Assembly (NCBI GenBank): GCA_010356995.1
Contig: ML996698.1
Coordinates: 121,923-185,922, forward strand
DNA: 64,000 nucleotides
Reading direction: 5' to 3'
Source of the DNA: Trichodelitschia bisporula
Lineage: Eukaryota
Shown here: one piece after another, positions 29,197 to 55,328 of the stretch
Numbering within the stretch: the first letter of the stretch is position 1
How the letters are laid out: each line of letters opens with the position of its first letter
Notes under the pieces: generated by a model
What the model saw: only the letters and a program-made list of their open reading frames with translations
Databases searched by the model: none
Told to the model about the DNA's origin: nothing
Position numbers and translations under genes: made by a program

Positions 29197-29279
29197 GCTA
29201 GGCTGGGAATGGGGGTGGGGGCGTAGTGTATGGCTTGGTTTGGTGTCTTTCTGGTCGGTATCTAGGGTGGGGTTTAGGA

Positions 29280-29532
29280 GGAGCGGTCGCTTTGCGGTGG
29301 GACGCTGGGTTGGCGTTGCCTGGTGCTTGTTGAGTATCTTGATGGACTGTGTAGACATATCAATCGCTGCCGTTTGCGAGGCTGCGCTTACTGTGACACA
29401 AAGCTGCACTTGAATACGGTGGGGGTGGGTGGGAGCGGTCGCTACGCAGTAGAACGCTGGGTGGCGTTTGCCCGGCCTACCGTATCTAGACGTAGACGTA
29501 TCAATCGCTACTTTGTGTGAGGCTGCTTACTC
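29280..29532. repeat. Imperfect direct repeat of about 100-110 bp (29280-29392 and 29432-29532)
   Basis: Shared blocks GAGCGGTCGCT, ACGCTGGGT, GTAGAC.TATCAATCGCT, GAGGCTGC, CTTACT in the same order. Confidence 0.7.
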
Positions 29533-29853
29533 TTCCATGAGGCTGATCGCTGCCCAAGAGGCTGGCTGACCTTGATGCCCAACACGATGGCGCGGCAATA
29601 CCCGGCGCTACTCGTAGCGGCCCCTCGACGAGCTGCCCCGCTTTCATCCACAGGGCTACGCTATTAAACCGCGTCCGCCCTACCCGTGTCTTCGCGGACG
29701 GTCTGCAGACATATCCTTTTCAGTGGTACTGACCCCCTGCCTCACTCGTTGTTCTTGATGTGGGGTGTCCCGCCAGCCCTGACCAGCCCTGCAGGGGCGG
29801 ACTGCGTGGTGAATGCGGGGTACGGGAGATCGGGCAGCTACGCCCCTTCCTCA

Positions 29854-29859
29854 CCTCGG
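29854..29859 (+). promoter_or_regulatory. Candidate FarA/FarB (CTF1-type) site CCTCGG upstream of fox2
   Basis: Exact hexamer about 115 bp before the ATG. The motif is known from fatty-acid utilisation genes of filamentous ascomycetes, but a 6-mer can occur by chance. Confidence 0.4.
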
Positions 29860-29974
29860 CAATGCCGCGCAGCCGCGCAGTGCGCGCAGTCTTAACCCCC
29901 AGCTTCCGCCTGCTCTATCTAACCGGGCGTCGAGCTTAAAACGACTTCAGTGTTGAGCTTAAACCAACCTCACC

Positions 29975-32900
29975 ATGACTTCTCCTCAGCAGATCCGGTA
30001 CGACAACAGAGTCGTGGTTGTGACGGGAGCGGGGAGTGGGTTGGGCAAGGCTTACGCCCTCTTCTTTGCGGAGAGGGGGGCGAAGGTCGTTGTCAATGAT
30101 CTTGGAGGGGCGTTTAATGGCGGGGGGCAGGATGGGCGGGTTAGTTGCTCTATTCGCTTCCCCGTCCACGGACGTGGACTTGCTTCGCTCGTCCCGGACT
30201 CGGCTAACCCCGCAGGTCGCCGACGCCGTCGTGTCCGAGATCCAACGTGCAGGCGGCACCGCCGTCGCCTCGTACGACAGCGTCGAAAACGGCGAGCGTA
30301 TCATCGCCACGGCCACGCAGGCCTTCGGACGCATCGACGTGCTGATCAACAACGCGGGCATACTGCGGGATGTCACGCTGCGGAACATGAAGGACGAGGA
30401 CTGGGACAAGATCATTGCGGTACATCTGACGGGTGCGTGGAAGACGACCCGGGCTGCGTGGCCGTGGTTTAGGAAGCAGAGATATGGGAGGGTGGTGAAT
30501 ACGAGTAGTACGAGTGGGCTTTATGGGAATTTTGGACAGGGGAATTATGCTGGTGGGTTATATCTATGTTACTGCATTTTCATCATTGTCCCTCCATTAC
30601 TGCCTCTCCATCACTGCCTCTCCGTCCTTACCTCTCCGTCACTGCCTCTCCGCCACTACCCATCCGTCCCTTCTGTCTCTCGGCCCGGACTAACTGACCC
30701 CTTTAGCCGCCAAACTCGCCCTCGTTGGCTTCACGGAAACCCTCGCCAAAGAAGGCGCAAAGTACAACATCCGCGCCACGGCCCTAGCCCCCTCCTCCGC
30801 CTCCCGCCTCACCGCCACCGTCTGGCCCCCCGAAATGATGGCCGCCATGGATCCCGCCTGGGTCGTCCCGCTCGTCGGCGTGCTCGTCCACGAATCTCTC
30901 CCCGCACACCTAAGCGGCGGCATCTTCGAGGCCGCGGCCGGGCACTACGACATGCTCCGCTGGGAGCGCAGCCGCGGCGCCCTCCTCCGACCGGACGAGA
31001 ACCTGACGCCGGATGTGCTGCTACGGAGCTGGGACAAGGTGGTTGATTTCACGGATGCGGAACACCCGCGCGGTGTTGCGGGGGCTATGGGGTTGCTGCA
31101 GCGGGCGAATCAGTTGCCACCGAATGTACCCGGCACGCCGATCCGGTTTGATGGGAAAGTTGTGTTGGTTACGGGGGGTGGGGATGGGCTGGGCCGTGCG
31201 TATGCGCGCCTGTTTGGCCGGCTTGGGGCGAAGGTTGTGGTGAATGATCTTGCGCGGGCGGAGGGCGTGGCGAAAGAGATCCGCGACGCGGGCGGCGAGG
31301 CGATCGCGGTCGCACTCTCGGTCGAGCGCGGGGACGAGGTCGTGGCGAAGGTGGTGGAGACGTACGGGCGCATCGACATCGTGGTCAACAACGCTGGCAT
31401 CCTGCGCGACAAGGCATTTGCGAACATGAGTGACGAGCAGTGGACCGCGGTCATCAACGTTCACTTGCGAGGCACGTATAAGGTCACTAAGGCGGCTTGG
31501 CCGCATATGTTGCGCCAGAAGTACGGGAGAATCGTGAATATCTCGAGCACGAGTGGGATTTATGGGAATTTTGGCCAGGCGAATTATGCGGCGGCGGTAA
31601 GTTTCCTACCTCCCCCTTTAGGTCATCTTATTGACAGTTTAGAAAACTGGTATCTTGGGCTTTTCCAGGACAATTGCACGAGAGGGAGCGAAATATAACA
31701 TTCATGTCAATACGGTTGCGCCGAGTGCTGGGACCGCGATGACGCGGACTGTGCGACCAGAGGCGGAGGTTCAACAACTGAAACCGGAATTCGTAGCGCC
31801 GCTAATTGCCCTCCTGTGTAGCGATGTGTGTCCTACACCGACGGGAGGAATGTACGAGGCGGGATCTGGTTGGTTTGCGGCGACACGATGGCAGCGGGCT
31901 CGCGGCGTTGATTTCCCGCACGACGAGGGTGTGCCGTCTGTTGAGGCCGTGAAGGATGCGTTGTCACACATCACGGACTTTGACGATGGCCGCGCCGATA
32001 ATCCGGAGTCGCCATCGGATGGGGGCAAGTGGGCGGTGGAGAATATTCTACGCAGTTCAAAGGTAATGTCAGCCTTTCAACGGTCAGCCTTGCAATTGGC
32101 GGTGAGCTTGCATTAACTCGGCTTGCAGACGAAGAGTGTAAACATCCGCCGGGAAGACCGCACAAATCGAAAATATCTCAACAAAATCGCGGCTGCGATA
32201 GGCGCAAACGGTCCCCCGACCCGCTTCACGTACACGGATAAGGACGTGATACTGTACAATCTAGGGCTAGGTGCATCGCATACGGATCTCCCCCTCGTCT
32301 ATGAGAAGCACCCTGACTTCCATCCTCTCCCTACTTTCGCCGTCGTACCAACGTACACATCGAAGGCCCCTTACATTCTCGCCGACATACTCCCAAACTT
32401 CAACCCGCGCCTCCTCCTGCACGGCGAGCAGTACCTGGAGCTCAAGTCCTGGCCCATTCCCACCTCTGGCACCCTGCTCACAACCACTAAACTCGTCGAG
32501 GTAGTAGACAAAGCTAACGCAGCCGTGGTGCGTCGCGCGGCAACAACAACCACAGATGAAGGAAAGCCGTTGTTCTACTCCGAGTCCGCCGCCTTCATCC
32601 GCGGGTCCGGCAACTTCGGCGGCTCGCGCAACGCCTCGGATCGCGGGCCCGCCACGGCGGCCAACAAACCACCGGCCCGCGCGCCCGACGCCGTGGTTTC
32701 CGAGACCACACCTACTAACCTCGCAGCCATATACCGCCTCTCCGGCGACCGCAACCCGCTGCACATCGACTCGGCCTTCAGCTCTGTCGGCGGCTTCAAA
32801 GTTCCCATCCTGCACGGACTTGCGACCTTCGGCATCGCGGCCAAACACGTGTCCGCGCGGTACGGCCCGTGGCGCGCGATCAAAGTGCGTTTTGCCGGGA

Positions 32901-38308: not shown

Positions 38309-39424
38309 CTACATTACAATACAACAACCTCCTCCAGATTCCTTCGTCTTTTGTACAGGTTTGGCACTTGATGAAGGCGTCCGAGCAGTAGGGGGCCGAG
38401 CAGTCCGCGGTCGAGCAGTGGAGGGTCGCGCAGTGGGAAGGCGAGCAGTGGAGCCGCCAGCGGTTGGGGGACGAGCGGTGCGGGTGCGAGAGTGAGACCG
38501 GGCACTCGGGGGACGATTAGACCGTGACCGTGGCCGAGCAGTTCCTTGTCGCGTTGACCCAGGGCGATCTTGAGGCGCAGGGGCAATATAGCCCGAAACC
38601 AGGGCCTCCATCATACGAGTTGTGACGACAGATGCCCTTGAGTGAATCTTCTGTGCGCCGAAGTTTCCGCCCGTATTGTCGCCAGCTTCGATCAGCGCCG
38701 GCCATACAACGAGGGCCAAATGGGTACCAGTGGAGCGGTCCCACTCCCTCTGGGGTATGTCGTATTCATCCATACCCAACGTCGGTCGAAAGCGCTGCGT
38801 AATCCGATTTTCACCCAGAGCCGTTATCATCAACAATGGCCATGTCTTGAGGAAGTAGTGCGAGACTTGCTTTTGAAAGTCTCGGTCGAGGCTCACGGCG
38901 GTTTCAACCGCATTGCGAAGTTGATGTTCCAGCGGACGTGATATTTCTGGAAGATACCTTCGTATATCGCCGACCAGGTCGTCCTGAAGCATGACAAGCA
39001 AGTCTTGTCGAACTTCGGGCTGGACTTCGTAATCATTGGCCAGCCGCCATCTTCGCAATTGGAGCTCTGCTTCGTCGTTTCCGGTACCTAAAGTATGAGT
39101 CGCTGGGGTGATCTAGGGGAGAATACACATACTTTCCAAAAGCCCCTCATGCGACCTTTCGGTCCGCCAGAAGAAACCTGAGCCGGCTCTCTCGTCTCCG
39201 AAGACATTTCCCGTGAGAAAGGCCCATATATATCCAATGATGAAGGGCAATCGGAGCTCTGCGGTGTTGAGGCAGTATTGAGCATCAGGGGAAACAGTTC
39301 CCAGCATCCACGCATTATTTGTGCCTGTTTGTCCGAAGCCGGCGAATTCAGCGGTGACAGCTGCCTGATCGACTTTGCCTCTGAGGTCATAATATCGGGC
39401 TGTAAGACCAACGACATCTCCCAT
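38309..39424 (-). CDS. Uncharacterised helical protein with C-terminal CaaX box (GGGCCIVM*); intron 39088-39132
   Basis: The GTATGT...TAG intron joins ORF 39113-39424 to ORF 38309-39058 in frame (356 aa). Motifs YIWAFL...VF...FFW, LRRWR, AVSLD..F..Q, LVVWPAL...G...G.NF; (TARPP)n tail. Confidence 0.7.
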
Positions 39425-40241: not shown

Positions 40242-43200
40242 CTATTCTATCATGCTGGGAACAAGGGACAGCAGGGAAGGAAACACTGCTCCGGTATGAC
40301 GCAATAGTAAGCTCATATCTGCTAGAGGTTCGTGGACGGGCACACTTTCCGAATCCGAAGACGTTGCAATGTACTGCTCAGATATCAATTATTTAGATGC
40401 ATAGGGAAGGGGGCAGGAAACTTACACTCGTTTGCTGCGACAGTTCATCCTCTGCATCAGTCAGGTCAGCCAATGTGGAATCCTCAGTCTCTGCAGTTCC
40501 GTTTATACCTAGAACAAGAAGGTTAAATTAATTCTGGACATCAAAGCGCGAGAAGTGGAGACTACAGAACTGGTGCAACATACGAAGTTCCGAATCGTCC
40601 AGCATGATTCGGCGCGGAAACCTGCTGAGAGAGTATCGATTCAGAGGCTTGCCAGGCGACGTAAGCAGCAACGACATATCAACCTGGGCATTTTTCGTGG
40701 AGACTGCCAGGTTGCGGATGATTACATAGGGGTCTCGTCCAGATATCATCCGCTCAACAGTTTCCTCAAGCTCAATCTGTGAGAAGGTCAGATTTCTCAA
40801 AGCGCCATCAGATCAAGTAAGACCCGTATCCACAAATACTAGGACTCGCAATCGTTTCATGCACCTTTTGGAGACAAGTGTACTGACCTTTTGAATAGTG
40901 TTTCCGCTTTCTCCACATGTGCACTCTCGAACTTCGAGAGACAGTTTCACGCCAGAGCGTTGCCGTTGTACGAGAAAAGTACCTAAGGCTCTGATATAGT
41001 CTTTGCGCTCCCTCAGGCGACAAACAACTTTTCCTTTTCGCAAAGCGAGTAAGCGACGTAAGAAATGGTGGGAGGGCCGAGCATATACCCGTTATCTTGT
41101 ACCCAGAGCCTTCACCGGTGGGCACCGGTAAGGTCGAGGCTGTGAAGAAGAATAGACTGGCAACAAGATTCATCACTATCCTATCAATGACTGTAAGTTG
41201 AGTGTCCAGGTAGCTCTGGGTTTGGCGCTGGATGCGGTCAAAGTGCTTCATTGCGTTGGTACCGTGGCTTGGATCGATCGAGAGTCTGGGGTTGATTCGA
41301 ACGTAGCGTTCTCTCAGCTGACGTGCCGCATTTTCTCGATCGCTGACCAGGAAATCTTGCCACATTGACTCCGCATCTGGAATATCAGGCAAGCGAGATT
41401 CCTGCTAACCCCTCAGTGGATTTCGCAACACTCATGGAAACACGTACCCAAAACTTGGGGCCTTTGCGACTAGAGTGTGTAGTGGGGCTTATCCTGTCGT
41501 CAGGACTGACGGGTTCGGTGCCATTGTATCCGGAACCGATTGAAAGCAGGAGGTCGGGATCAACAGCAGCTACATCAGTCCATATTCTTCTCATCTCTGC
41601 GTCGACAAGTTGTATCGGGTTGTTGTAGCGCAGCGTGCCATCCAGATAGCTTCGATGTGTTCTTGAATGTGTGAAGGACTTGAATAGTCGAGGAAAGGCG
41701 GATGCGGCTGCGCCCGCCTCCCATACCTGCAATTCTGATCCGCGATCATCAGGCCTGTGGAGTTCATAGTCGCCAGAAACGCTCCCGGAATGGCTGTAAT
41801 TCGCCAGAAGGACTGGTTTCCGAGTTATTTGGTCGGTTGCTGTTACGGCGACTTTGACATTGCTGTGAGTTCTGCCCGGTTCGTCACGTCCGAAAAGGGC
41901 AGTGCATCCTAAGCTTGTTTTCAAAGTCTCATATAGAGGAGTGGTCTTCAAAACGCTCCTATGGCGGAAGGGCACTAATTTGCTGATGCCGGGAACTCTG
42001 AAAAGCACACGGGGCCTGAAGGCGTTATCGCGAAATGTATCCTGGTCTTCGAGGCATTCACCGACCGTTTTCTCCCGGACGCCGAGGCTGAGCGCTAGGA
42101 TTGCACCGGCACTAAAAAGAAGTCAGCAAACTCTACCCGCATTAAAAGACAGTCTGCTTACCCGGAACCAACCATCAGATCGAAGAAGGCCTGTATGGGG
42201 ATTTCTGATGGAAGTTCCCTTTGAAGGGCGCGGAGAACTTCCAACTCGGCAATAGCGAGAACCCCTCCGCTAATCACCGATTAGCTTCTAATTAGGTTCG
42301 GTCAAAAAAGAGTACTTACCCATCGAGACTCAGCAATCGTACACCCGCCTGCTCTGGTTTGAACCGGATAACATGCACTTCCGGTGCCGCACCCGATGAA
42401 GACGCATGGAGGGGGCAGCCCGTTAGCGTGACTTCATTGTAGGTATGCAGCTTGTTTCCTTGGGCCTGAACACACTTTGTGCACAGTACATGTCCACAGG
42501 CCAGTGGATGCTCCGGAGCAGTTGCCAAACAACCAAGACATGTGGTCTGGCTAAAGAATTTGGGCCACCCTAAGTGAAAGGCTTGGAGGAAACGATCGAT
42601 TTTCTGCGAGTGCAAGGGCCATATGTCGTCAAGACCTTCACGGGTAGGGCCAAAGGAAAGCCGTGTTTTCAAGTCGTCTTGGATGCTGGATATGGCCTTC
42701 CTGATAAGGTCGATCCATTCGTCAACCCTCGAACTCGAAAATCGGGGGTCTGGTTGGTAATCGCCTCGTTGGATGATGCGCCCGTCACAGTCTTGATGGC
42801 CTTTCAGGCCGTGGATTAACTTGACATTGACGCAATGCCTGTCTCCCTTGCTGAAGCCGCATGGCCAGTATTTATCGCAAAAGGTAGTGAAAGCATCCTC
42901 AAACGATGACTGGTATTGGCGAAAGATTTCAGAGTCGGTCGCCCATCCTATTTGCAGTTAGCAGGGCACACTGACTGGTAATTTCACGTCCGCACCTTGT
43001 TTGCGCACCCTCACAACGTCTAAGACAACACAAGAGGCCACCAGTTCGGTGAATGTGTTGTAGATGTCTTCATCCTTAGCCCTATCCCGCGCATCACAGA
43101 TACAGAGGGCAAGCCGCACAACGTGGTTGGCGAAGTTTTGCGGGATCGGATTGAGCCTGAGGGATACCCTGACAAAGTTGAAGGGCTCGTTCAGTTTCTG

Positions 43201-44711
43201 GGTGAAGTGGTCAAGGGCGGATCGCAAGTACACGTTAAATGTTTGTGCTTCAAGAAGCATGTGCGCTTTTTGCTTTGCCTTGTTGGACTCCTCGCAGCCA
43301 TCTTGGATCTTTTGCCTTAGCTTGCCGAGTTGCGTATTTAAGCGACTGTATCTGCCATCGGTCGCTGCTGGAAGTCGGACGACAGTAAATGAAGAATAGT
43401 AGCGCAGGATGAGGTCTTGGATAGTCTGATCTCTTGGTTCTGTGGTGCCAGCTTCCGGTGCGCCAGCGGTGCAACTCACATTCAAGTCGGCCATAAGCTT
43501 CTGTGCATGCCTTGTAGGCAAATCGTTGACAAGAGCCAGCAGTTCATCCCTTGTCTTATTAGTATCCCATTCGTCGTCAGGATTTTTGCGGGAAGGCGCT
43601 ACGGCGTTCAGAGCTAGAATAACGTGCGGAAGAGTTGGCTGGTTGACCGATGTTTCAAGAGAGTTTGCACCCCACTCAATCAGATTGTACAAAGCATCTT
43701 GGAAGGTCCTAAAAATCATTAGGCTGAAGAGCGACTGATGGAAATGGCCCTTACTTTGGATTCTTGCATACATAAACGACGACAGCAGAGAATGCGTATA
43801 GCACGCGTGGGTACAGGTGGCCAACAGCGAACCGTCTGTCGGAAACTGATACGCCCGGCTGCATCCTGGATGGTGGCTTGCTCAGAGAGTCGGGTCTGGC
43901 CCATTGCAAAACTCGTACACGGCTTGCAGTAATTAGAGGATCATGGTCGTCCGGCTCGCGTCGTCGGTTGGCCATTGGCGACAAGTCACCGCCCTTCAAG
44001 CCTTCGCAGTCGACGTACAGAATGGGCTGGTCCTTGTCGTACGAGTCGGGGTCAGCATACAGGTGAACGTCAGCTGATATGGGAAGTGTATCGTTCGATG
44101 CATCCACAACAGGAGTCGGAAACTCGTCCCCGGATAGGCGACAAGACTCAATAAGCATTCTGATTAGAGTGCTCTTGCCCGCTCCTGTGAAGTATGGTGT
44201 TAGCACATCCCCACATATACATGATGAACTCACCTGTCTCGCCCACAAACGACACAAGTTGTGGGTACTTCTCAGGCGAATTGGCCTTAATGTTTCGGGT
44301 GACGATATCGGTGTATGCATCGAACTCTTCGAGGACGGGGGTATCCGAACCGTTCTGTCGCCATCCTTCACCAGGTTAAAACATGCGGCGCAGGGGAACA
44401 AGATGGTACATACCTAACCACTTTGTCCGTTCGTCGAGTATGTGGGCATTGTCGTCACTCGAGGCGTGGAGGATCTTGTGGAATCTGTCATGCAGTAGGG
44501 GGTTTTCCTTCTCGTGCACTTGCGGTCCGCGTGACTTTTTGCGATGAGCTTGTTGTCTGTCCCAGCAGACATCACATAAACGAAGGTTACAGTTCGGACA
44601 GTACGACACGGGGGAGTCTCCGGGTTTGCAATCATCCCCCTCACACAAAATCGCATCTGTATCCACCGAGTTCTCAGAGTTCTGAACGTCCAGGGAGCTA
44701 CTGGAATCCAT
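40242..44711 (-). CDS. Multidomain protein, copy 1: B-box-like finger + GBP/atlastin-like P-loop GTPase + RING-like finger + patatin (catalytic Ser absent); about 12 exons
   Basis: Hand-spliced with GT-AG introns: CPNC..LCDVCW...H; LVSFVGET|GAGKST; DCEG; WPC...CVN...H..KGHQ; CLGC..CGHVLCTKC..CPLH; LLSLDG|GGVL; MVGSG|AG; VWEAGAA.SA.P; YLDG..NNP; LLSIGSG. The last two exons (40508-40426, 40373-40242) are less certain. Confidence 0.85.
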
Positions 44712-45961
44712 CTGCGCCTTGGTAAACGATCCGACAGGGCAGTTCAGCACATGAAGTGGAAAAATATGCGGAGTATGTTGATGTTAAGGCGCGGCTAACA
44801 AAAAAAAAGGGGTTAAGTGACGATCCCACTGACGAGAACATAAAACAGATAACCAAGCTCGCTGGACAAAATATGCGATAAGAGCGAACATGAAATATGT
44901 GCCTTTGAAGCAAGATAAACCAAACCTCATACTATGCGGCTCTGCGGGCGAAAGTACATGATCCTTAGATCGGAAGACCCTCCCAGGACCATGGACGTAT
45001 GGCCTGGTAACACGGCAAGCTTGAACCAATATGGTTTCGGCACGTCACAATATTGGGCTCCGAGGAGCTGTAAGTCAGGCAAAAGACAACATAAGGCTAG
45101 ACATCAAGGTCTGGACATGCACCATCCTGCGAGTCATCAGCCTGAGTGCTGTTGTTTTTTTGGGTTGCACTGATGAAGCCAAATTGAATCTGCAGCTCCT
45201 TCAAAATATCCTGTCTGCGTGAATCGTGGCGCAAGCGCTGGCAATAGAAACTTGCCTCCCTCCCCATCCCAGCCGCGATGAAAGGCAGATGCCTGAATGA
45301 CTGTGCATTGAAGACAGCTACAGGCAACGGCGCAAAGCAGCCCAAAATGAGGCGAACCGTGCATCTCGATTATCGCCGTGGTTGACCTAAAGACGAGTTG
45401 CAATATTTTCCATGCAACGTATGGTCCTGTACAAGGTGCAGCTGATGTGAACTGCATGAGCGCCGAATCCGTAGCTGTGCGGGGAGGGTTGCGGTTCGAT
45501 GGCGGGGAGGCGTCGTGCTCTCATCGTAGGGCGGAGGTGTTGTTCGAGTTACGTCCGAGTGCTTCCACATCATTCCAAGCGACCACGCCGACCAACGCGT
45601 CAATGCGTCGCGCGCCTCGGATTGGCGTTTTTCCGGTGGTGGCCGTAGGAGGCCATACCAGGTCATGTGACCGTGATATGTTTGCCAGGATACGACTCTA
45701 CTACTTGCGGAATTGCGATCTTCAAGCTAAGATATCCCGGGCCTATTTTACCCAGTCCGGAGGCCTGCGTAAGGCACGGGTCTAACAATTGCCAAAACGA
45801 GGCATTGCTACGTCTTCAAGTGCGGGCCAACCTTGATTCTGCCACTCCACGAGGTTGCAAACGCGTGTTAAAGGCAGCCGTATGATATGTGCGCACACCT
45901 CGCACCTCTATCATCTCATCAACACCCATCCAAGATTCTACAAGCCGCCAATCCAGCAACC

Positions 45962-46684
45962 ATGCCGTTCCGCATCCGCGACGCCGTCCCCGACGCCTCA
46001 AACACCGATGCCAAGTTCATCACAGCCGCCTTCGACTCATGCATCCCGCACCTGGCCACTATCGGCAGCGCCAGCCCATGGGGAACCGACTCGCTGTCTT
46101 CGGTCCGCCCCAACCTCATCGACCGCTACATCGCCGCCGTCGCCGACGCCGAGAGATACCGTCTCACCAGTTCCGGCCCCCCGGTGCGCGTCCTGATTGC
46201 CGACGCCCGCCTGCCGAGCGGGGAGTACCTCCCTGTAGGCGCGGCGACCCTGCGCGGGGGATACATCTCCAAGTATGTGCTGGAGCAGAAGCACTTGCAG
46301 GACGTAACCAGCAGGGGGTTGGCTGGGGAAGAGGGCGGGTTAATGTTCTTGGAGACTCTCGTCACGGATTTCAGCGAGGCGACCAGAGAGTATCGCAAGG
46401 GTGCCGCGGCCGCGCTGGTGAAGTATAAGCGGGAGTGGGTGGGGACGGAGTTGGGGATGAGTGTGATTTACCTTGACTGCTGGGCAGGGAACGAAGGGAA
46501 GTTGTTTAAGTATGTCACTTTCCTGGAGTGACCCAAGACGCTAGGGCTGAGATGGAGAAATTTACGTGAGGCGATATGCTGACCGAGAGACAGGTTCTAC
46601 GAAGCACAGGGCTTTCAAAAGGTGGATGGGTTTATGTCTGAGGGGTGGTCGGGTATGTTTATGCGAATGGACCTTGGGAAGTAG
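45962..46684 (+). CDS. GNAT family acetyltransferase, copy 1; 1 intron
   Basis: GS..WG, LETLVTD...RKGAA, YLDCWAGNEGKL.|FYE.QGF. The last exon follows CTGAC...CAG and ends at TAG 46682-46684. Confidence 0.85.
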
Positions 46685-47240
46685 GATGCGGAGTAGTAAG
46701 GGTTCTTCAGATAAGCTTTTGTTTCGGAGCATAAATCTGGCTTTCGCAACTGGAATCAGCATGGTGATGTTGTCATCCAGGGGTTGCCACTGATTCTCTG
46801 AGTGAGTAATCGTCGCCCTTGATGGGATGAGTGCGAGTAGCCTTGATTTCCGAGATACCCGTGGGTCAATACTGCTCCTTCCTTCAAGTCAAGCAATCCG
46901 AGCATCACTATCCGGGATAGGAGATTGTCAGCAGGAGCTGGGAGAGTGTGAGATCTTTATCGGTGTGCGTACTTCGAAGGTAGAGCTGCAAATGGGTCAT
47001 GTGATGCCGGTTGGCCTTCGGCGGAACCGTTATCGGGGGTGCGCACGGGCCAGCTTGTCCTATGGGGTTAATATGCAGCGGTAGGGCTGGGCGTTGATGG
47101 GTGAGGGCTGGGGTTGGGGGGGATGGATGGGGGGGTGGGTTGTTGAGCTGCGTTGTTTCTTGTTTTTGTTTCTAATTCTACATTTGACAGCAAGAGACGC
47201 TCCTGCGCCTGTGGCTGCGCGTTTGGACGGCTGAAGTCTG

Positions 47241-48712
47241 ATGGTACGCGGGGCACACTTCACCGGTTGGAGATGGCGGTGGGTGGGAGTATTGGTTTGG
47301 TGTGTGGTCGCGACGGCGGAAGCAGCCCGGCCATGCGTATTCCCTGAGGGACGAGAAGCGGTTTTTGTAAGTCCGCCCTCTATTCTACCCCGGACTCCGG
47401 GGTTCAGGCTTAGGCCGGGGGCGGGGCGCGAAGGGTGAGTGCCTTTAATGAGTGACGGTTACGGGCTGACGGGATAGATGGTCGGATTTGGTACTGGGCA
47501 AAGAGCGGGTGGCAGTATGGGAGGATGGGGTTTGGGTCCGGCGAGGATGGGGGTGAGGGTGAGGGCGGGGCCTATCTGACAAGCGTCTTCGGCGTCGAGT
47601 GTGACGGCAGCCTCACGATGCACCTCCCGCCGGGCAAGGCGCCGGTACGCCACCGTTCCGCCGGCCATCTACGCGCTCGAGATCTCTGTCCTCGTCCCTC
47701 CTCCCGCATGCGCCGGTGGCTCTCCACCATTCTCCCCACCCTCCACCGGCGCCAAACCCCCTCCCACACCACGCACTACGACCTCTTTGCCTTCCTCACC
47801 TCCCCAGTATGGGGTCTCGTCAACGACCGCGAGCAAGAAAGGGTACGCGCCGCGCTGTCCAGTGATGCCGTTTGGGTTAGTAGCGGAGGAGAAGCACTGC
47901 GCACGGCCGGCGAGTTTTAATGGGTGTGGGGCGGAGAATGGGATGAAGGTGCCGGATTTTAGGTTTACGGTTTGTTGTAATATGCATGATTTGTGCTATG
48001 GTAAGTCAACCAGACCCTTGGGAAGAGAGATGGGGAAGAGAGGAGAGGGAGAGTGGGGAGTGATGATGGGATAGAGGCTAATGGGGATGCTCAGATGATT
48101 GCGGTACGCCATTCGAGGAATGCAACGCCCGCTTCCGCGATTGCATGCACGCCGCCTGCCACGCGTACTACGGGAGCGACACCAACACCGGCCCTCCAAC
48201 AACTACCAAACCCTCCTCTACCTCCACCAGCAAAGCGTCCACCACCAGTAGACCTCCCACCACAGGCCCCGCCCGGCGTGCCTCCTCCACCGCCTCTCCT
48301 AGTACCATCCCCCCCTCCACCAAACCCACCGCCCCTCCCCCTCCCTCCGCAACCCAACCCCCTCTCCTGGACCCACTGGGGCTGCGACCTGCTAGCCAAC
48401 ACCTACGCCGAAGCCGTCGGCACCTTATTCGGGGGGTGGTCCTTTGCGCTGTCCACCGCCGACCGGTGCGCCTGCGCGTGTCCCGCAGAGACATTTGACT
48501 GCGGAGATATCTGCCTTAGGAACTGCACCGAGCGCTGCAGCGTGCTAAACTGCGCCGACCCGGCTGTGGGCGCAGTACCAAAACGGCTGGGGTGGGGGAG
48601 GGAAGGTGTAGTGCCCATAAGTAGTGGGAGTGCGGCGCCGAGTGGGGCTAATGTCACGGTTTTCACTTCGGGGGGTAACCTACAAAGTTCCACCGAATGT
48701 ACTGCGTATTGA
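47241..48712 (+). pseudogene. Inverted, truncated, frameshifted copy of the group XII-like PLA2 gene at 8064-10401
   Basis: Same peptides (RPCVFPEGREAVF, FNGCGAENGMKVPDFRFTVCCNMHDLCY, WTHWGCDLLA). It has a deletion after the first donor, +1 nt near 47836 and -2 nt near 48355; homology ends at about 48670. Confidence 0.85.
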
Positions 48713-48997: not shown

Positions 48998-51900
48998 CTA
49001 CATCAAGATACATGAGCAACATCCCCCAGCAACCTCCGACGCACTTGTGGATCTGCCGGCCAATGTCGAAGGTCGAATAGTGGTAGGCTGAGCAGCAAAG
49101 GGTCGATCCGTACGAGTACGGGACTGAGACCGGGCACTGGGAGGACGATTAGACCATGACCGTGTAGTTTCAGGTCCCGTCGGCCCGGGGCCACTTTGGG
49201 GCTTGGTGGAATCCGGGGAGGTCCCAAAGTGCTGCTCACGCGTCACGTCATTAGATGAACAGAAAGGGGTGAAGGAGCCTCACTCTTGTTTGCTGTGACT
49301 GGCTGTCCCTAGCAAGGGATGTCTTGGAAGAACACTCCCCTCCGACCCCAGGAATTATGAAGCTCGGATCTCGTGGATGTTCGTTGACCAGCACACTTTC
49401 TGAGTTTGAAGAAGTTTGCAACGTACTATCCAAAAATACATTTATTATAAACATGGAGAAGAGGGCCGGAAACCTTACATTTGTTTGCCGCGACAATGCA
49501 TCCTAATGAGTAAGTTAGGCAGCCTAGCATTCTGGGGCTCTGCAACTACGTTGATCTTTGGAGCCAGAAGGTTAGATCCATTCTGAGCATTACAGCGAAG
49601 GGCTGGAGATGGCCGAATTAATGTCATGTACCAGGTCCAGATTGTCCAGCATGACTGGGCGCGGAAACCTGCTTATTGAGTGTCGATGCGAACCCTCCCC
49701 ACGCGACATGAGCAACGACATATCAACTTTAGCATCCCTCGTGGAGACTTCCAGGTCGAGGATGTACAAATCGAATATCGATCCGTACATCATTAGCCTA
49801 AAGGCTTCGCCAAGCGCAATCTGAGAGAGCATTAGAGATCCCGAAGCGGCATTTAATAAGATCCCTTATCGGGCAGATGTCGGGGCTTGCAATCTTCCCG
49901 TTCACCTTTCAGAGGCAGTCGTACTCACCTTTTGAATAAGTCTTCCGCTTCCTACGCCTGTGCACTCTCGAACTTCGAGAAAGAGTTCCTCACCGCTCAT
50001 TTGCCGTCGATCAAAAAAGGTTCCCAGAGCTTCGATATAGCCCGAGTTGTCATTGAAGCGGCAGATAACTTTTCCTTTTCGCAAAGCGTGTAAGCGGCGT
50101 AAGAAAGGTGGGAGGACTGACACTTACCCGACACCTTGTACCCCTGTCCTCGACCTACGGGCGACGGCGAGTACGAGACTGCGAAGAAGAACTGACTGGC
50201 AACCAGTTTCATCGTCAACCTATCAATGACCTTTGATTGAGTCTTCAGGTATTCCCGAGTTTGCCTCTGGATGCTGACAAAGTCCTTCACTGCAGAGATG
50301 TCGTTGCGTGGGTCGGTCTTCAGTCGAGAACTAGGGTTTATTCGAACGTAGCGGTCTTTCATTTGAGGTGCCGCATTTGATTGAACTGTGTCCATGAAAT
50401 CTCGCCAAGTTTTGTCCGCATCCGGGATACTGCGACCGCGAGATTCCATCTAACCTCTTAGCGGATTTCGCCACACTCAACAAAAAAACGTACCAATTGC
50501 CGGGATAGACGATGACCAGGACATCGAATGGAGTCTATCTTGTCGCTAGCATCAACAGATCCAGCGCCGCTGTGTCCGGAACCAATTGAAAGCATGAGGT
50601 CGGGGTCGGAGTCAGCTACGTCTGACCAAAGATGCTTCCTCTCTGCGTCAACCATTTTTATCGGATTGTTGTTGATCAGCGTGCCATCCAAATAGCTTCG
50701 ATGTGTTTTTGAATGCGTAAATGGCTTGAATAGTGGGCGAACGGCGAATGCGGCTGCGCCTGCCTCCCATACTTTCAATTCTGCTCCGCGATCATCAGGT
50801 CTGTGAAACTCATATTCGCCAGAAGGACTTGCGGAACGGCTGTAATTCGCCAGAAGGACCGGTTTCCGACTTATTTGGTCGGTTGCCGTCACGGCAACTT
50901 TGATGTTGTGGTGAACTCGGCCCGGTTCATGATGTCCGAAGAGGAAAGTTCTTCCCAGGCTTGGTTTCAAGGTCTCATACAGAGGGGTTGTTTTTAGAAC
51001 GCTCCCGTGGCGTAAGGTAACCAGTTTATTGATGAAGGGAACTTTGGAAAGCTCACGTTTCCTGAAGGCGGTGTTGCGAAGTGTAACGAGGTCGTCGGTG
51101 CATTCATCAATCGTTTTCTCTCTGACGCCGAGTTTAAGCGCTAAGATTGCACCGGCGCTAGAAAGAAGTTAGCAAGCTCTGTCCACACTCAAGGCTGGTG
51201 GATATACCCGGAACCGATGATCATATCAAAGAACGCCTGTATGGGGATGCCTGATGGAAGCCCCTTTTGAATAGCCCTGAGAACTTCCAGTTGGACGACA
51301 GGGAGGGCTCCTCCACTGATCGCCGATTAGCTTTGTTTCAAGTATTGCCAGGCAGCACCCACCCATCAAGGCTCAGCAGTCGTACACTTGCATGCGGTGG
51401 TTTGAATCGGAAAGCCTGTTCTACCGGTGCCACATCCGGAGAAAGTACATGGAGAGGGCAATTTTTCAGCTTAACTGAATTCAGGGTAACCAGCTTGACT
51501 CCGTGTGCGTGAACACACTTTGTGCAGAGTACATGTCCACAGGTCAGTGGATGCTCCGGAATAGTTGCCAAACAACCAAAGCATGTTGTCTGGCTGAAAA
51601 AATTCTCCCACCCGTAGTTAAAAACTTCGAGGAAGTTTTCAATATTCTTCAAGTGCAAGGGCCATATGTCGTCAATACCTTCACGGGTGGGGCCAGAGGA
51701 AAGCCGAGTTTTTAAGTCATCCTGGATGCCAGATATGGTACTTCTGATGAGGTCAATCCATTTGCCGACCTCCGGGCTTGAAAATCGTGGGTCCGGCTCA
51801 TATTCACCTCGTTCAATGACGCGCCCTCCAATGTCTTGATGGCCTTTTGGACCGTGCCTTAACTTGACATTGACGCAGTGCCTACCTTCCTTGCTGAAGC

Positions 51901-53817
51901 TGCATGTCCAATATTGATCGCAAAAGGTTATGAAAGCTTCCTCAAACGATGGCTGGTACTGGTGAAAAATTTGAGAGTCGGTTGCCCATCCTCCTCGCGG
52001 TTAACAGAAACACATATATTGATTGTTTAACGTTCGTACCTTGTTTGCGCACTCTCATGACGTCAAGAACAACGCATGACGCCACCAGTTGGGTGAATGC
52101 ACCGTATATGGCCTCATCTCTGTACCTATCCCGCGCATCACAGATGCAGGCAGCGAGCCGAACAACGTGGTTGGCGAAGTTTTGCGGGATCGGATTGAGC
52201 CTGAGTGATACTTTGACGAAGTTGAAGGGCGCGTCCAGCTTCTCGGTAAAGTGATCGAGAGCGAATCGCAAGTACATGTTGAATGTTTGTGCCGTAAGAA
52301 GCATATGCGCTCTTTGCTTTTCCTGGTTGGACTTGTCGCAGCCGTCCTGGATGTTCTCCCTCAGCTTGTCAAGTTGCGTATTCAAGCGGTTGTATTGGCC
52401 ACCAGTTGGGGCGGGAAGTGGGACGACAGTGAACGAGGAATAGTACCGCAGGATGAGGTCTTCGATGGTCTGGACTTTCGATTCTGTGGCGCCCGCTTCC
52501 AGTGAGACAGCGGCGCGATTCACATTCAAGTCTGCCATAAGCTTCTGTGCATGCTTTCCATCCAAGTTGTTAACATAGTCCAGCAGTTCTCGCGTAGCTT
52601 TATCAGTGTCCCATTCATCTTCAGGGTTTTTGCGGGAAGGTACTGCGGCATTCAAAGCTAGAATGATATGCGGAAGAGTTGGCTGGTTGACCGATGTTTC
52701 AAGAGAATCCGCCCCCCACTCAATTAGATTGTACAATGCATCTTGAAAGGTCCTAATAGTTGTTAGGCTGAAAGGTTGTCTACAGAAAATGGTGCTTACT
52801 TCGGGTTCTTGCACACATAAACGACGACGTCAGAGAATGCGTAGAGCACGCGCGGGTACAGGTGACCAACAGCGAATCGTCTGTCGGAAACCGAAACGCC
52901 CGGCTGCATCCTTGATGGTGGTGGACTTTTGGAGTCGGACCTGGCCCATTGTAACACTCGTATACAGCTCGCAGGGGTCACGGGATCAGGGTCGCCAGGT
53001 CGGTGCCGTCGGTTTGCCATTGGCAGCAAGTCGCCGCCCTTCAAGCCCTCGCAGTCGGCATAGAGAATGGGCCTTTCCTTCTGGCACGAGTCGGGGTCAG
53101 CGTATAGATGGACGTCAGCTGATATAGGGATTGTGTCGTTCGATGCCTCCACAACGGGAGTTGGAAACTCTCCGGGTCTGCATCGAGTCTCAACAAGCAT
53201 TTTGATTAGAATGCTCTTGCCCGCACCTGTCGAGTACAGTGTTAGAAACACTTGTACTCAAGTCTAGGAAACGTACCGGTCTCGCCCACGAACGACACGA
53301 GCTGCGGGTATTTCAAGGACGCATCGCCTCCAGCGTATCGGGCGAAGGTATTGCTGTATGCCTCAAACTCTTCTAAGACGGGGGTATCGGGGCCATTCTG
53401 CGCCCATCCTTCACCAAGTTAAACATGTGGTGGCCAGGAAACAGGTTACTACGTACCAAACCACTTCGTGTCTTCGTCAAATACGTGGGCTTCCCCGTCA
53501 CTCGAGGCGGTAAGGATATCGGCGAGCCGTTTATACACTAGGTAGGGTGTCTTCTCGTGCACACTCTGTCTCGGCAACCTCATGCGGTGAGCGAGTTGTT
53601 CGTCCCAGCAGTCATCACAGAGGATAACTTCACAACTCGGACAGAACCACAAGGACGCTTCCCTGGTCGTGCATCCGCCCTGACACTTAGTCGAACCTAC
53701 ATCCCCCGACACCGTATCCACCGAGTTCTCAACATTGAGGGAGCTGTTGGAATCTGTCTCCTCCACGGTGACCGGCTCGATGCGATCCACGGTGTCCGAC
53801 TCGATGCGACGAGACAT
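48998..53817 (-). CDS. Multidomain protein, copy 2: B-box-like + GBP-like GTPase + RING-like + Ser-less patatin, with a modelled in-frame C-terminal CaaX tail (GGCCSCILM*)
   Basis: Same intron positions as copy 1; VGET|GAGKSI, DCEG, CFGC..CGHVLCTKC..CPLH, LDG|GGAL, IIGSG|AG, YLDG..NNP. The core to about 49632 is solid. The tail needs introns 49556-49631, 49426-49478 and 49232-49283. Confidence 0.8.
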
Positions 53818-55328
53818 GCAGAAGCCTTAGACGCGAGCAACAGGGCAGTTCAGCACACGAAGTGGAAGAAAATGCGGGAAATGCCAATATCAAGGCGCGG
53901 CTGAAAAGAAAAGCGGCTAAGTGGTGACCACACTGACGGGGCATAAAAACGGATAAACCAAGTTCGCTGGACAAAATATGAGGTGTCAGCGAACATTGCA
54001 TTTTTGCCTTACGCGCATTTAGAGTAAGATAAAACAAGCCCCATCCCGTGCGGCTCTGTGGGAGGAACGTACCTCGTAGAATGTTCCAGCCGACTGCATA
54101 ATGCAGCGCTTTGCTGTGTCGTGCGTTGCTGTGTACGATAGCGCGTCCTGCGTGTCACCTTCAATCGGATCAGCGTTCTTCCGGTCCGTGCCAGCTTGAA
54201 CTGCGGGCAGTTTTCTCCAACAAGAAGACTGCACTCCACACCATCTTCTGCTGTATGCCCCGGGCGCCGTCGACTGTACACGTTTCCTCCATCCGCAGCT
54301 GCGCGGTGGACGTTCCAACCAATGTGATAAATTTCTTCGAGTCCACGTTTACCCTTCGATGGCCTTGGTGTTGCAATAGGCTAAATGATGCTGCAACGAT
54401 GCTGGGAACCTTGCTCCATGCTTAGTTAAGGGTGGGCCCGGAATCTGGTGGACCAGAACCTAAGGTATCTCTCTTTGGTGCTTTTGGCTGTGCAAGCTCA
54501 GTGAGTGGTGCACCGAGATAAGAAAGAGATTTCAGCTCTCAGCAACTCAAAGGAATCTAACAATCCTGTTTGGTGTAGTCCCGGCTTTCGGATGTACCCG
54601 TAGACCGAGTCCAGGCATTCATCTATCACTCGCTTTGGTCGGATTTGTCGTCGTGAAATTGTCAGTCAACAGCGAGGAAACGGCCTCATGCAGATCATTC
54701 AACAGCTTGTGTTTTTTGCCCACGTGGCAGGCAGTCCGCCATACCGTCTCAGCCTTGTCCGCCTCCTCGGGCAGCCTTGTTTGTACCTACTAAGCCATAT
54801 GCGTTAAGCAGAACCTCACCTCCATCCATCCTAGAGAAGCAGAAGTCCCCGATCCTGCGCCATTGTATACTTACATCCGAACCTAGGAACCGCCTCCGTG
54901 CCCGCACTTTCATAGGCCTCATTCAACGTCGCGCGTACGTTACCTCTAAGGTGCAAGCCCGCCCACGTCATCCACAGGCTAACCTAAAAAGTGATAGACC
55001 CTCCCAAAAAGTTGTAGCCGGCTTTTGTCAAACATTTTGCCAAGTAAGAAGCAGAGACTATCAGATGGGGTTCCTTCACTTTTTCGGGTAGCCCTTGGTC
55101 CCTCCACTACGCATCGCGTCACCCTGGTTCGGAGAAATGCTTTTCCGGCGCATGTCAGCATCGGCATTCCAACTAGATGACGAGTTGAAGCGTTTCAACT
55201 ATTCTGACGTAGTAGTATCAATAGAGCCTGGTGTTACTAGGCGCATCCTGGCCGCCCGTCAATCTGGAGCACTCTGTCATCTCACCCCAACCCCATCCAA
55301 GATCCCATAAGCCGCCAATCCAGCAACC

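What the first reader, a model, noticed from the sequence alone, without database searches (positions are those of the whole stretch)
42095..42335. Both patatin domains are predicted pseudoenzymes: GxSxG reads GSGAG and the oxyanion-loop Arg is lost
Seen: copy 1 splices to DGGGVLA...FDLMVGSGAGAILA (intron 42112-42161, codon GG|T). Copy 2 splices to DGGGALP...FDMIIGSGAGAILA (intron 51158-51207, codon GG|C). The Asp motif remains as DGT. Known: active patatins have DGGGx(R/K)G, GxSxG and DG(G/A). Inferred: catalysis was lost before the duplication while the domain was kept, suggesting lipid sensing, decoy or inhibitory use. The Ser one position earlier is unlikely to substitute, but this is not excluded.
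Basis: partly seen in the sequence, partly recalled or inferred. Interest (0 to 1): 0.75.

Follow-up and report, generated by a model that had tools for sequence, protein, structure and literature searches.

The report
Serine-less patatin domains in duplicated fungal genes
Two neighbouring genes of the fungus Trichodelitschia bisporula encode large GTPase/RING proteins whose lipase-like (patatin) domain has lost its key catalytic serine, a loss that turns out to be common in this fungal protein family and has precedents in plants and parasites.

Summary
Both minus-strand tandem paralogues (copy 1 ~40816-44711, copy 2 ~49905-53817) splice to DGGGVLA/DGGGALP, GSGAGA and DGT, and the deposited gene models use the same junctions. 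No alternative splice choice restores GxSxG. In the closest solved relative, the bacterial CBASS phospholipase AbCapV, P0001 Gly771 aligns with the nucleophile S58, Leu739 with the phosphate-binding R21 and Asp928 with D192. S58A abolishes AbCapV hydrolysis but not assembly.

The genes belong to a large Pezizomycotina family: B-box, GBP/atlastin-like GTPase, helical region, TRIM-like RING, CapV-like patatin, C-terminal domain. Loss of the serine is recurrent there: of 250 aligned relatives 150 have Ser, 84 Gly and 16 other residues. The T. bisporula loss is independent of the main Gly clade (sister protein has Ser; AU test p 0.0012) and is unusual in also losing the Arg. Conserved-site erosion is confined to the patatin domain (12-14 of 59 columns against 3-4 in Ser-bearing relatives). 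The domain is still under purifying selection (dN/dS 0.38), and the GTPase and RING motifs are intact.

Most likely these are non-catalytic patatin modules kept for binding or assembly. Caveat: plant GxGxG patatins (pPLAIII) are reported to be active. New member of a known kind; moderate interest.

The parts
40816..44711 (-). Copy 1 gene (deposited model P0001, EJ06DRAFT_479226, extended here at the 3' end). Order of domains: B-box, GBP-like GTPase, helical region, RING, patatin, C-terminal domain.
   Evidence: exons mapped from P0001, no stops. The C-terminal exons 41087-41401 and 40816-41031 are absent from the deposited model but homologous to Glonium P0008 989-1082 (E 5e-10).
41607..42333 (-). 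Copy 1 patatin domain (P0001 aa 731-939), interrupted by two 50-nt introns.
   Evidence: Pfam PF01734, 65.1 bits, E 1.3e-17. Foldseek best match AbCapV 9kej, E 5.4e-13. Coordinates.
42254..42324 (-). Copy 1 Gly-rich loop D734-G-G-G-V-L739-A740. Leu (CTC) and Ala stand where the family has Arg-Gly. Includes intron 42270-42319.
   Evidence: L739 aligns with AbCapV R21. In the clean aligned set, 12 of 237 proteins lack Arg/Lys at this column.
42102..42169 (-). Copy 1 nucleophile turn G769-S770-G771-A772-G773-A774. The Gly771 codon is split GG|T by intron 42112-42161.
   Evidence: G771 aligns with AbCapV S58 (Ala in the S58A entry 9kej). Strand 766-770, turn, helix 772-782 in the model.
41634..41642 (-). 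Copy 1 dyad Asp motif D928-G929-T930 (GAT GGC ACG).
   Evidence: D928 aligns with AbCapV D192.
44171..44243 (-). Copy 1 P-loop G142-E-T-G-A-G-K-S149, intact, spanning an intron.
   Evidence: G142, G147, K148, S149 invariant in 45 sequences. N-terminal half matches GBP1 1f5n, E 3.4e-7.
42415..42540 (-). Copy 1 RING-like zinc finger C662..C703, all ligands intact.
   Evidence: C662, C665, C676, H678, C681, C684, C703 invariant. Profile hits to RNF141 and TRIM34/5/31 RINGs. 0 of 10 conserved RING columns lost.
49905..53817 (-). Copy 2 gene (deposited model P0002, extended here at the 5' end). Same architecture as copy 1.
   Evidence: B-box and P-loop exons intact at 53455-53817, 53275-53397 and 52799-53224 although absent from the deposited model. 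75% nt identity to copy 1 over 49360-54072.
50650..51376 (-). Copy 2 patatin domain (P0002 aa 517-726).
   Evidence: Pfam PF01734, 57.0 bits. Coordinates.
51300..51367 (-). Copy 2 Gly-rich loop D-G-G-G-A-L-P (Leu CTC, Pro CCT in place of Arg-Gly). Includes intron 51316-51362.
51148..51215 (-). Copy 2 nucleophile turn G-S-G-A-G-A. Gly codon split GG|C by intron 51158-51207.
50680..50688 (-). Copy 2 dyad Asp motif D-G-T.

Best explanation
The window comes from Trichodelitschia bisporula (Dothideomycetes). It holds two old tandem paralogues of a Pezizomycotina-wide multidomain family: N-terminal B-box-like zinc finger, GBP/atlastin-type large GTPase with its helical region, TRIM-like RING, a patatin domain whose closest solved relatives are CBASS CapV-type phospholipases, and a C-terminal domain.

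In the T. bisporula lineage several patatin changes occurred after the split from the Glonium lineage and most probably before the tandem duplication. The nucleophile Ser became Gly; one A-to-G change of an AGY codon would do it (inferred). The Arg-Gly after DGGG became Leu-Ala or Leu-Pro; CGC to CTC would do it (inferred). Several residues of the conserved ATSAAP block also changed.

The domain therefore most likely cannot carry out canonical Ser-Asp acyl hydrolysis. It is kept, under purifying selection, as a folded non-catalytic module for membrane or lipid binding, or for assembly. The protein's output would then run through the intact GTPase and RING.

Shown: the sequence states, the alignment to experimentally defined catalytic residues, the independent origin of the loss, domain-specific erosion, constraint between the paralogues, and intact GTPase and RING motifs. 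Inferred: loss of activity, the non-catalytic role, and the order of events.
For: Junctions and motifs.

Alignment to AbCapV: G771=S58, L739=R21, D928=D192. In AbCapV the dyad is S58/D192 and R21 is proposed to hold the substrate phosphate; S58A and D192A abolish hydrolysis and growth arrest while filaments still form (PMC12480259, passages).

Model: mean pLDDT 82.4, pTM 0.81; G771 lies between strand 766-770 and helix 772-782.

Fold matches: patatin part to AbCapV (E 5e-13), CapE, patatin-17 and iPLA2beta; N-terminal half to GBP1 (3.4e-7), GBP2, atlastin-1 and RNF112. Profile against the PDB: CapV 2.4e-32; RING part to RNF141 and TRIM RINGs.

Erosion: of 59 patatin columns at least 85% conserved in 46 Ser-forms, P0001 lost 12 and P0002 14, against 3-4 in P0008, P0010, P0050, P0003 and P0101. 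GTPase-like columns lost: P0001 4 of 50, P0008 3 of 50. RING: 0 of 10. Patatin model scores are about half those of Ser-forms: PADLOC phospholipase effector 62 and 60 bits against 117 and 135; Pfam 65 and 57 bits against 67-98.

Constraint: dN/dS 0.38 over 253 patatin codons, dS 0.57, no stop in about 1140 aligned codons of either copy.

Family pattern: of 250 relatives aligned at the nucleophile column, S 150, G 84, N 9, D 5, R 1, E 1. Gly-forms keep the dyad Asp in 17 of 26 against 77 of 80 in Ser-forms, which is what real loss of catalysis predicts.

Independent origin: P0001+P0002 are sister to Ser-bearing Glonium P0008 (support 100). Holding all Gly rows together costs 146 lnL units, p-AU 0.0012.
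Against: Plant pPLAIII patatins have GxGxG, often lack the Asp as well, and are nevertheless reported to hydrolyse acyl lipids (PMC4623698, passages citing Li et al. 2011 and 2013). Absence of the Ser therefore does not prove inactivity.

Asp928 and the DGGG glycines are retained, and Ser770 lies next to the turn.

dN/dS of 0.38 equals the whole-gene value. It shows constraint, not what the constraint is for, and it is higher than in the GTPase (0.21) and helical (0.22) exons.

The relative-rate counts show that the whole protein, not only the patatin domain, evolved faster than its Glonium sister: patatin 43:13, GTPase-like 24:8, helical 28:18 with outgroup P0010.

No expression data could be consulted. 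The AlphaFold model rests on the family alignment and says nothing about stability of this particular sequence. The AU-test group was defined after a first tree had been seen.
Confidence: 0.72

Rival explanations
1. The domains are still acyl hydrolases working by a non-canonical mechanism, as claimed for plant pPLAIII (GxGxG). For example, Asp928 could activate water, or Ser770 could serve as a displaced nucleophile.
For: pPLAIII proteins with GxGxG, often without the Asp, are reported to have acyl-hydrolysing activity (PMC4623698, passages). Asp928, DGGG and the fold signature are kept. Ser at position -1 is commoner among Gly-forms (9 of 35) than among Ser-forms (2 of 89).
Against: In the nearest characterised relative, S58A alone abolishes hydrolysis (PMC12480259). 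Here the phosphate-binding Arg and the following Gly are lost too, and the ATSAAP block is altered. Position -1 is Thr in 86 of 89 Ser-forms; in Gly-forms it is T 20, S 9, A 3, Q/E/N 1 each, a pattern of relaxation rather than a directed switch. Ser770 is the last strand residue, not the turn residue, and a shifted motif would have Val at -2, where nucleophile elbows need a small residue (the last point is from general knowledge). TgPL1, another Ser-less patatin, lacks PLA2 activity (PMC10513453, passage).
Confidence: 0.13
2. The two genes are on their way to becoming pseudogenes, and the patatin changes are early decay of genes that are no longer needed.
For: Long stem branch to the pair (0.66-0.83 against 0.37-0.39 for the sister). 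Faster change than the sister in all domains. High dN/dS at the B-box exon (0.77) and one C-terminal exon (0.84).
Against: Both copies keep open frames over all nine exons (about 1140 aligned codons) at dS 0.55. Overall dN/dS is 0.38, and 0.21-0.22 in the GTPase and helical exons. All P-loop and RING ligands are intact. Splice sites are canonical and at conserved positions in both copies. There is no RIP signature.
Confidence: 0.06
3. The Ser loss arose in one copy after the duplication and was copied to the other by gene conversion, so the order of events differs from the reader's.
For: The neighbouring duplicated ORF pair is far more similar (dS 0.12, 90% nt identity) than the patatin genes (dS 0.55, 75%). 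This would fit conversion acting somewhere in this block.
Against: dS of the two patatin exons (0.60 and 0.56) is not lower than in the other exons (0.41-0.70), and the two Gly codons differ (GGT, GGC). About nine shared derived replacements are spread over roughly 230 residues. An ancient conversion cannot be excluded.
Confidence: 0.07
4. Artefact of gene prediction, mis-splicing or sequence error at an intron that happens to split the nucleophile codon.
For: The intron lies inside the critical codon. A few homologues show insertions exactly there that look like model errors (P0017, P0028, P0151).
Against: The same result is found in two diverged copies with different codons. Consensus-like donors and acceptors give 50-nt introns. 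No alternative pair gives GxSxG (0 of 8 and 0 of 13 open options). The Arg loss lies within an exon.
Confidence: 0.02

Closest known systems
CBASS patatin effectors CapV and CapE (AbCapV: PDB 8zr9, 9jeh, 9jek, 9kej)
   Same: Closest solved relatives of the patatin domain by sequence (P0001 E 2.5e-9; family profile E 2.4e-32), by fold (E 5e-13) and by PADLOC phospholipase-effector models. Same motif order: DGGGxRG, GxSxG, DG[GA].
   Different: Bacterial, single-domain, about 340-360 aa, activated by cyclic nucleotides, with S58/D192/R21 required or implicated (PMC12480259). Here the domain is one module of a fungal protein of about 1150 aa and has Gly, Asp and Leu at those three positions. No cyclic-nucleotide link was examined.
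Plant patatin-related phospholipase subfamily III (pPLAIII)
   Same: Patatin domains in which GxSxG reads GxGxG and the dyad motif is often degenerate. Retained and biologically active in vivo (PMC4623698, passages).
   Different: Independent origin: the fungal Gly-forms descend from Ser-bearing fungal relatives. pPLAIII keeps the anion-binding element DGGGx(xx)G, is a stand-alone enzyme, and is reported to hydrolyse acyl lipids.
Toxoplasma gondii TgPL1
   Same: [quoted passage not shown] A lipid-binding or cofactor role has been proposed (PMC10513453, passage).
   Different: Apicomplexan secreted or vesicular protein with a different architecture. No kinship beyond the patatin fold was tested.
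GBP / atlastin / RNF112 large GTPases
   Same: The N-terminal half matches GBP1/2, atlastin-1, RNF112 and SMG9 by fold (E 3e-7 to 7e-5) and by language-model features (0.86-0.88, a lead only). Like RNF112, it combines a RING with a GBP-type G domain (RNF112's RING is recalled from its name).
   Different: No Pfam GBP hit at E up to 0.05. RMSD values are large (19-25 A over about 570-600 columns), so domain arrangement differs. The fusion to a patatin domain was found in no paper searched.
Fungal NLR PLP-1 (patatin N-terminal effector domain)
   Same: Fungal multidomain protein whose patatin domain is needed for regulated cell death (PMC10197012, passage).
   Different: PLP-1 is described there as an NLR protein with an N-terminal patatin domain. 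The family here has a C-terminal patatin after a GBP-like GTPase and a RING, and no NACHT or NB-ARC hit in Pfam.

Membership tests
Patatin-like phospholipase domain (Pfam PF01734) | Sequence and fold membership | tested here: met
   PF01734 at 65.1 and 57.0 bits, cut-off 27.7. Foldseek matches to CapV, patatin-17 and iPLA2beta with probability 1.00.
Patatin-like phospholipase domain (Pfam PF01734) | Nucleophile Ser in GxSxG | tested here: not met
   GSGAG in both copies. The Gly aligns with AbCapV S58.
Patatin-like phospholipase domain (Pfam PF01734) | Gly-rich anion/oxyanion loop DGGGx(R/K)G | tested here: not met
   DGGG is kept, but Arg-Gly is replaced by Leu-Ala (copy 1) or Leu-Pro (copy 2). 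L739 aligns with AbCapV R21.
Patatin-like phospholipase domain (Pfam PF01734) | Dyad Asp in DG[GA] | tested here: met
   The Asp is present as D-G-T in both copies and aligns with AbCapV D192. Thr in the third place is unusual for the family.
Patatin-like phospholipase domain (Pfam PF01734) | Acyl-hydrolase activity | not testable with these tools
   Needs an enzyme assay.
CBASS CapV-type effector | Activation by a cyclic oligonucleotide from a partner CD-NTase | not tested
   No search for a CD-NTase or a nucleotide pocket was made. Only the patatin core (AbCapV residues 7-297) aligns.
GBP/atlastin-type large GTPase | P-loop GxxxxGK[ST] and G-domain fold | tested here: met
   GETGAGKS at 142-149, invariant G142/G147/K148/S149. 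Foldseek GBP1 E 3.4e-7, atlastin-1 about 1e-5, RNF112 about 3e-5.
GBP/atlastin-type large GTPase | Match to the curated family model (PF02263 GBP) | tested here: not met
   No GBP model among the Pfam hits at E up to 0.05; only short P-loop matches.
RING / B-box (TRIM-like) zinc fingers | Cys/His ligand pattern and match to curated models | tested here: inconclusive
   Ligands are invariant. The family profile hits RNF141 and TRIM34/5/31 RINGs at E 2e-5 to 2e-3, and Midline-1 and TIF1beta B-boxes at about 0.006-0.06. Pfam scores are below the gathering cut-offs.
Plant pPLAIII | Descent from the plant pPLAIII clade | tested here: not met
   The Gly state arose within the fungal family from Ser-bearing relatives. 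It resembles pPLAIII only in the GxGxG state.

The most novel reading that the evidence does not exclude
The interesting object is the family rather than the two residues. It is a fungal protein class that joins a GBP-like GTPase, TRIM-like B-box and RING (plus SPRY and ankyrin in some lichen fungi) and a CapV-like membrane-attacking patatin domain. In other words, it is built from modules used in animal and bacterial cell-autonomous immunity, and could be a fungal immune or cell-death executioner.

On this reading the many Ser-less members are not decay. They are a repeatedly evolved non-lytic class (sensors, regulators or decoys that still assemble, as AbCapV S58A does). T. bisporula, where only two members were found and both are Ser-less, would show that the GTPase/RING machine works without lipolysis. 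A bolder variant: the GxGxxG/A turn that results, together with the DGGG loop, has become a phosphate- or nucleotide-binding site.
Probability: 0.2. Interest if true: 0.75.

Novelty: new member of a known kind. Interest (0 to 1): 0.42.

Why it matters
Taken alone, a patatin domain with Gly at the nucleophile position is a known phenomenon, so the two genes are a further example and not a new principle. What the follow-up adds is context that I did not find in print. A widespread Pezizomycotina family fuses a GBP-like GTPase and a TRIM-like RING/B-box to a CapV-like patatin domain, and the catalytic Ser has been lost many times in it (at least 9 Ser/Gly changes on a 107-protein tree). This gives a natural series for asking what a patatin fold does when it no longer hydrolyses lipids, and whether this architecture is a fungal counterpart of animal GBP/TRIM and bacterial CBASS defence modules. 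It also warns annotators that 'FabD/lysophospholipase-like' or 'phospholipase A2' labels on these proteins should not be read as activity.

Tried and rejected
Alternative splicing restoring GxSxG: rejected.

RIP mutation as the cause: rejected. RIP indices are normal (TpA/ApT 0.67-0.69; (CpA+TpG)/(ApC+GpT) 1.12-1.17), transitions are symmetric, and the two key changes (A-to-G, G-to-T as inferred) are not of RIP type.

One shared origin with the large Gly clade of Mycosphaerellales-type fungi: rejected.

Pfam on five neighbouring ORFs (45872-46528+, 38312-39112-, 48005-48709+, 47580-48071+, 39091-39522-): no hits.

The listing of cluster members for the organisms of ten Gly-forms: not answered because the database was switched off. 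Organism names came only.

A first dS estimate for the neighbouring ORF used a wrong offset and is void; it was redone.

Literature searches found no description of this architecture or of fungal Ser-less patatins: 'patatin'+'pseudoenzyme' (8 papers, none on this), patatin/fungal/NLR, patatin+CapV+fungi (3 papers, irrelevant), patatin+B-box+RING+GTPase+fungal (1 paper, irrelevant), guanylate-binding protein+patatin+fungi (2 papers, irrelevant). These searches cover only the open-access library.

Not done: second structure job, complex prediction, scans of genome contigs (prokaryotes only, so not relevant). PF28431, precomputed on many relatives, was not reported by my Pfam copy, so I cannot say what it is.
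Full report
**Observation.** The finding lies on the minus strand of a fungal window with short GT..AG introns.

| | Copy 1 | Copy 2 |
|---|---|---|
| Gly-rich loop | LDGGGVLA, intron 42270-42319 (50 nt) | LDGGGALP, intron 51316-51362 (47 nt) |
| Nucleophile turn | FDLMVGSGAGAILA, intron 42112-42161 (50 nt), codon GG\|T | FDMIIGSGAGAILA, intron 51158-51207 (50 nt), codon GG\|C |
| Asp motif | YLDGTL | YLDGTL |

A homologue search with the patatin exon returned 7 proteins at E up to 0.001. Two of them are Trichodelitschia bisporula models: P0001 (100% identical over the query exon, 1012 aa) and P0002 (919 aa). Both carry the same spliced strings. T. bisporula is a Dothideomycete of the order Phaeotrichales. 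Pfam finds PF01734 above its gathering score in both copies.

I tried every GT/GC..AG pair near the nucleophile-codon intron. In copy 1, 77 pairs were tried, 8 stay open and 0 give GxSxG. In copy 2, 82 were tried, 13 stay open and 0 give GxSxG. Retention of the intron gives a stop.

**Which residues are missing.** By sequence the closest solved structure is AbCapV, the cGAMP-activated patatin phospholipase of bacterial CBASS (E 2.5e-9). Counting through that alignment, P0001 Leu739 aligns with R21, Gly771 with S58 (Ala in entry 9kej, whose title names the S58A mutant), and Asp928 with D192.

The AbCapV paper (PMC12480259, passages read) states that S58/D192 are the catalytic dyad and that R21 is proposed to stabilise the substrate phosphate. 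It also states that S58A and D192A abolish hydrolysis and growth arrest while filament formation is preserved.

An AlphaFold model of P0001, built on a 45-sequence family alignment, is confident (mean pLDDT 82.4, pTM 0.81). It places Gly771 between strand 766-770 and helix 772-782, and the 10-residue blocks covering the motifs score 81-95. Ser770 corresponds to the Thr that precedes the nucleophile; that position is Thr in 86 of 89 Ser-bearing relatives.

**What the genes are.** Exon mapping shows nine coding exons in each copy without stops.
- The deposited copy-1 model reads through a 46-nt intron. It therefore lacks a C-terminal domain that is present in the DNA and homologous to Glonium P0008 989-1082. 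This explains the pLDDT below 50 of P0001 966-1012.
- The deposited copy-2 model lacks the intact B-box and P-loop exons.

The family profile against the PDB gives:
- CapV 2.4e-32, other CBASS patatins, iPLA2beta 4e-27, patatin-17 1e-16
- for the RING part, RNF141 2e-5 and TRIM34/5/31
- weak B-box hits (Midline-1, TIF1beta) and weak P-loop hits

Foldseek on the model gives AbCapV 5e-13 for the patatin part. For the N-terminal half it gives GBP1 3.4e-7, GBP2, atlastin-1, RNF112 and SMG9. ESM Atlas features point the same way (GBP/RHD3/SMG9-type G domains at 0.86-0.88, a lead only). PADLOC phospholipase-effector models also match.

The architecture is therefore: B-box, GBP-like GTPase with helical region, RING, CapV-like patatin, C-terminal domain.

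**The family and the frequency of the loss.** An exhaustive phmmer search of 1.84 billion representatives with P0001 gave 3699 hits at E up to 1e-3 and 387 at E up to 1e-30. Named relatives come from many Pezizomycotina classes.

| Set | Aligned at nucleophile column | Ser | Gly | Other |
|---|---|---|---|---|
| 154 proteins first stored | 129 | 89 | 35 (incl. the two window copies) | 5 |
| All 279 stored | 250 | 150 | 84 | N 9, D 5, R 1, E 1 |
| Same, clean subset: no insertion at the site and both flanking Gly kept | 239 | 146 | 80 | N 7, D 5, E 1 |

These sets were gathered by similarity to a Gly-form, so the proportions are not family-wide frequencies. A few calls with insertions at the intron site (P0017, P0028, P0151) look like gene-model errors.

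Among proteins with all three motifs aligned, Ser-forms keep the dyad Asp in 77 of 80 and Arg/Lys in 78 of 80. Gly-forms keep the Asp in 17 of 26 and Arg/Lys in 22 of 26. In the clean set, 12 of the 237 proteins aligned at the Arg column lack Arg/Lys. Leu at that position occurs only in the two window copies and one other protein.

**Origin of the T. bisporula loss.**
- FastTree tree of 107 proteins: these were the 107 of the 129 with all three motif columns aligned and at least 700 aa, so 22 were dropped. P0001 and P0002 are sisters (support 100), next to Ser-bearing P0008 from Glonium stellatum (support 100), inside a Ser group. A separate clade of 17 holds 15 Gly-forms. At least 9 Ser/Gly changes are needed; label shuffles average 22.6, and 0 of 500 are as low.
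- IQ-TREE tree of 28 selected proteins: same placement. The AU test rejects uniting all 11 Gly rows (lnL difference 146, p 0.0012; the group was named after the first tree had been seen).

Shared derived replacements at conserved columns (R739L, T770S, S771G, A904G, T907A, T964S, and changes at 740, 794 and 910) argue for loss before the duplication.

**Selection.** Nei-Gojobori estimates between the copies:

| Region | Codons | dN/dS | dS |
|---|---|---|---|
| All exons | 1143 | 0.38 | 0.55 |
| Patatin | 253 | 0.38 | 0.57 |
| P-loop exon | 142 | 0.21 | 0.61 |
| Helical exon | 238 | 0.22 | 0.58 |
| B-box exon | 99 | 0.77 | 0.52 |
| C-terminal exons | 105 and 56 | 0.84 and 0.47 | 0.41 and 0.70 |

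Of 159 columns at least 85% conserved in 46 Ser-forms:
- P0001 lost 12 and P0002 14 of the 59 patatin columns, against 3-4 in the five nearest Ser-forms compared.
- P0001 lost 4 of the 50 GTPase-like columns, against 3 for P0008.
- Both copies lost 0 of the 10 RING columns.
- P0002's N-terminal counts are void because its deposited model is truncated.

Full-length Gly-forms from the other clades likewise mostly keep the GTPase and RING columns. The whole T. bisporula protein evolved faster than its sister: patatin 43:13, GTPase-like 24:8, helical 28:18 with outgroup P0010.

**Mechanism.** The most likely reading is a patatin module that can no longer perform Ser-Asp hydrolysis. It is retained as a folded binding or assembly module in a protein that acts through its GTPase and RING. 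The AbCapV S58A result shows that assembly can survive loss of the nucleophile.

Precedents: TgPL1 lacks the Ser and PLA2 activity (PMC10513453, passage). Plant pPLAIII has GxGxG and often no Asp, yet is reported to be active (PMC4623698, passages). The pPLAIII case is the main reason for caution. A patatin domain is also an effector of fungal regulated cell death in the NLR PLP-1 (PMC10197012, passage), but that is a different architecture.

**Novelty.** Ser-less patatins are known, so this is a new member of a known kind. I found no paper describing the GBP-like/RING/CapV-like fungal family or its recurrent nucleophile loss (searches; open-access library only).

**Unchecked.** Expression data, the full T. 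bisporula proteome, coding sequences of the homologues, and the organisms of most unnamed representatives (one search did not complete).

Noticed in passing
window 40816-41447 (copy 1, 3' end) and 52799-53817 (copy 2, 5' end): Both deposited gene models look incomplete. P0001 reads through a 46-nt intron (41402-41447) and misses a conserved C-terminal domain encoded at 41087-41401 and 40816-41031. P0002 starts at an internal Met and misses the intact B-box and P-loop exons (53455-53817, 53275-53397, 52799-53224).
   Followed up: partly
window 45906-47061 and 55272-56427 (+ strand ORFs 45872-46531 and 55311-55895): A second duplicated segment lies upstream of each patatin gene and is far less diverged (90% nt identity; ORF pair dS 0.12, dN/dS 0.35) than the patatin genes (75%; dS 0.55). 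Either gene conversion acted on this part or the block was duplicated in two steps. The ORF has no Pfam match.
   Followed up: partly
relatives P0209, P0211, P0243, P0259: Family members from lichen-forming fungi (Cladonia, Icmadophila, Rusavskia, Squamulea) carry additional precomputed SPRY (PF00622) and, in two cases, ankyrin (PF12796) domains. This makes the B-box/RING/SPRY combination strongly TRIM-like.
   Followed up: no
relatives (P0238, P0249, P0256, P0261-P0263, P0277 with Asn; P0245, P0246, P0251, P0264 with Asp): A second kind of nucleophile loss: Asn or Asp in place of Ser. Where the protein is named, the organism is a Sordariomycete (Apiospora, Xylariaceae, Nemania, Diaporthe, Colletotrichum, Rosellinia); P0245 has no name. 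Whether these form one clade was not tested.
   Followed up: no
window 44400-44711 / 53455-53817 and 41087-41401 / 50126-50446: The N-terminal B-box exon (dN/dS 0.77, 46% identity) and the first C-terminal exon (dN/dS 0.84, 55% identity) diverge much faster between the paralogues than the GTPase and helical core (0.21-0.22). This is the pattern expected of recognition or partner-binding ends.
   Followed up: no
window 28518-28644: A run of 127 N (assembly gap) lies within a region of strong GC-skew change: the 2-kb windows at 26001-28000 and 28001-30000 have skew -0.25 and +0.33.
   Followed up: no
window 38309-39112 (-) and 48998-49279 (-): Low-complexity Arg/Pro/Ser/Thr-rich ORFs downstream of each patatin gene share a short similar stretch (38468-38532 vs 49100-49164, 83% identity). 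No Pfam match for the first; not examined further.
   Followed up: no
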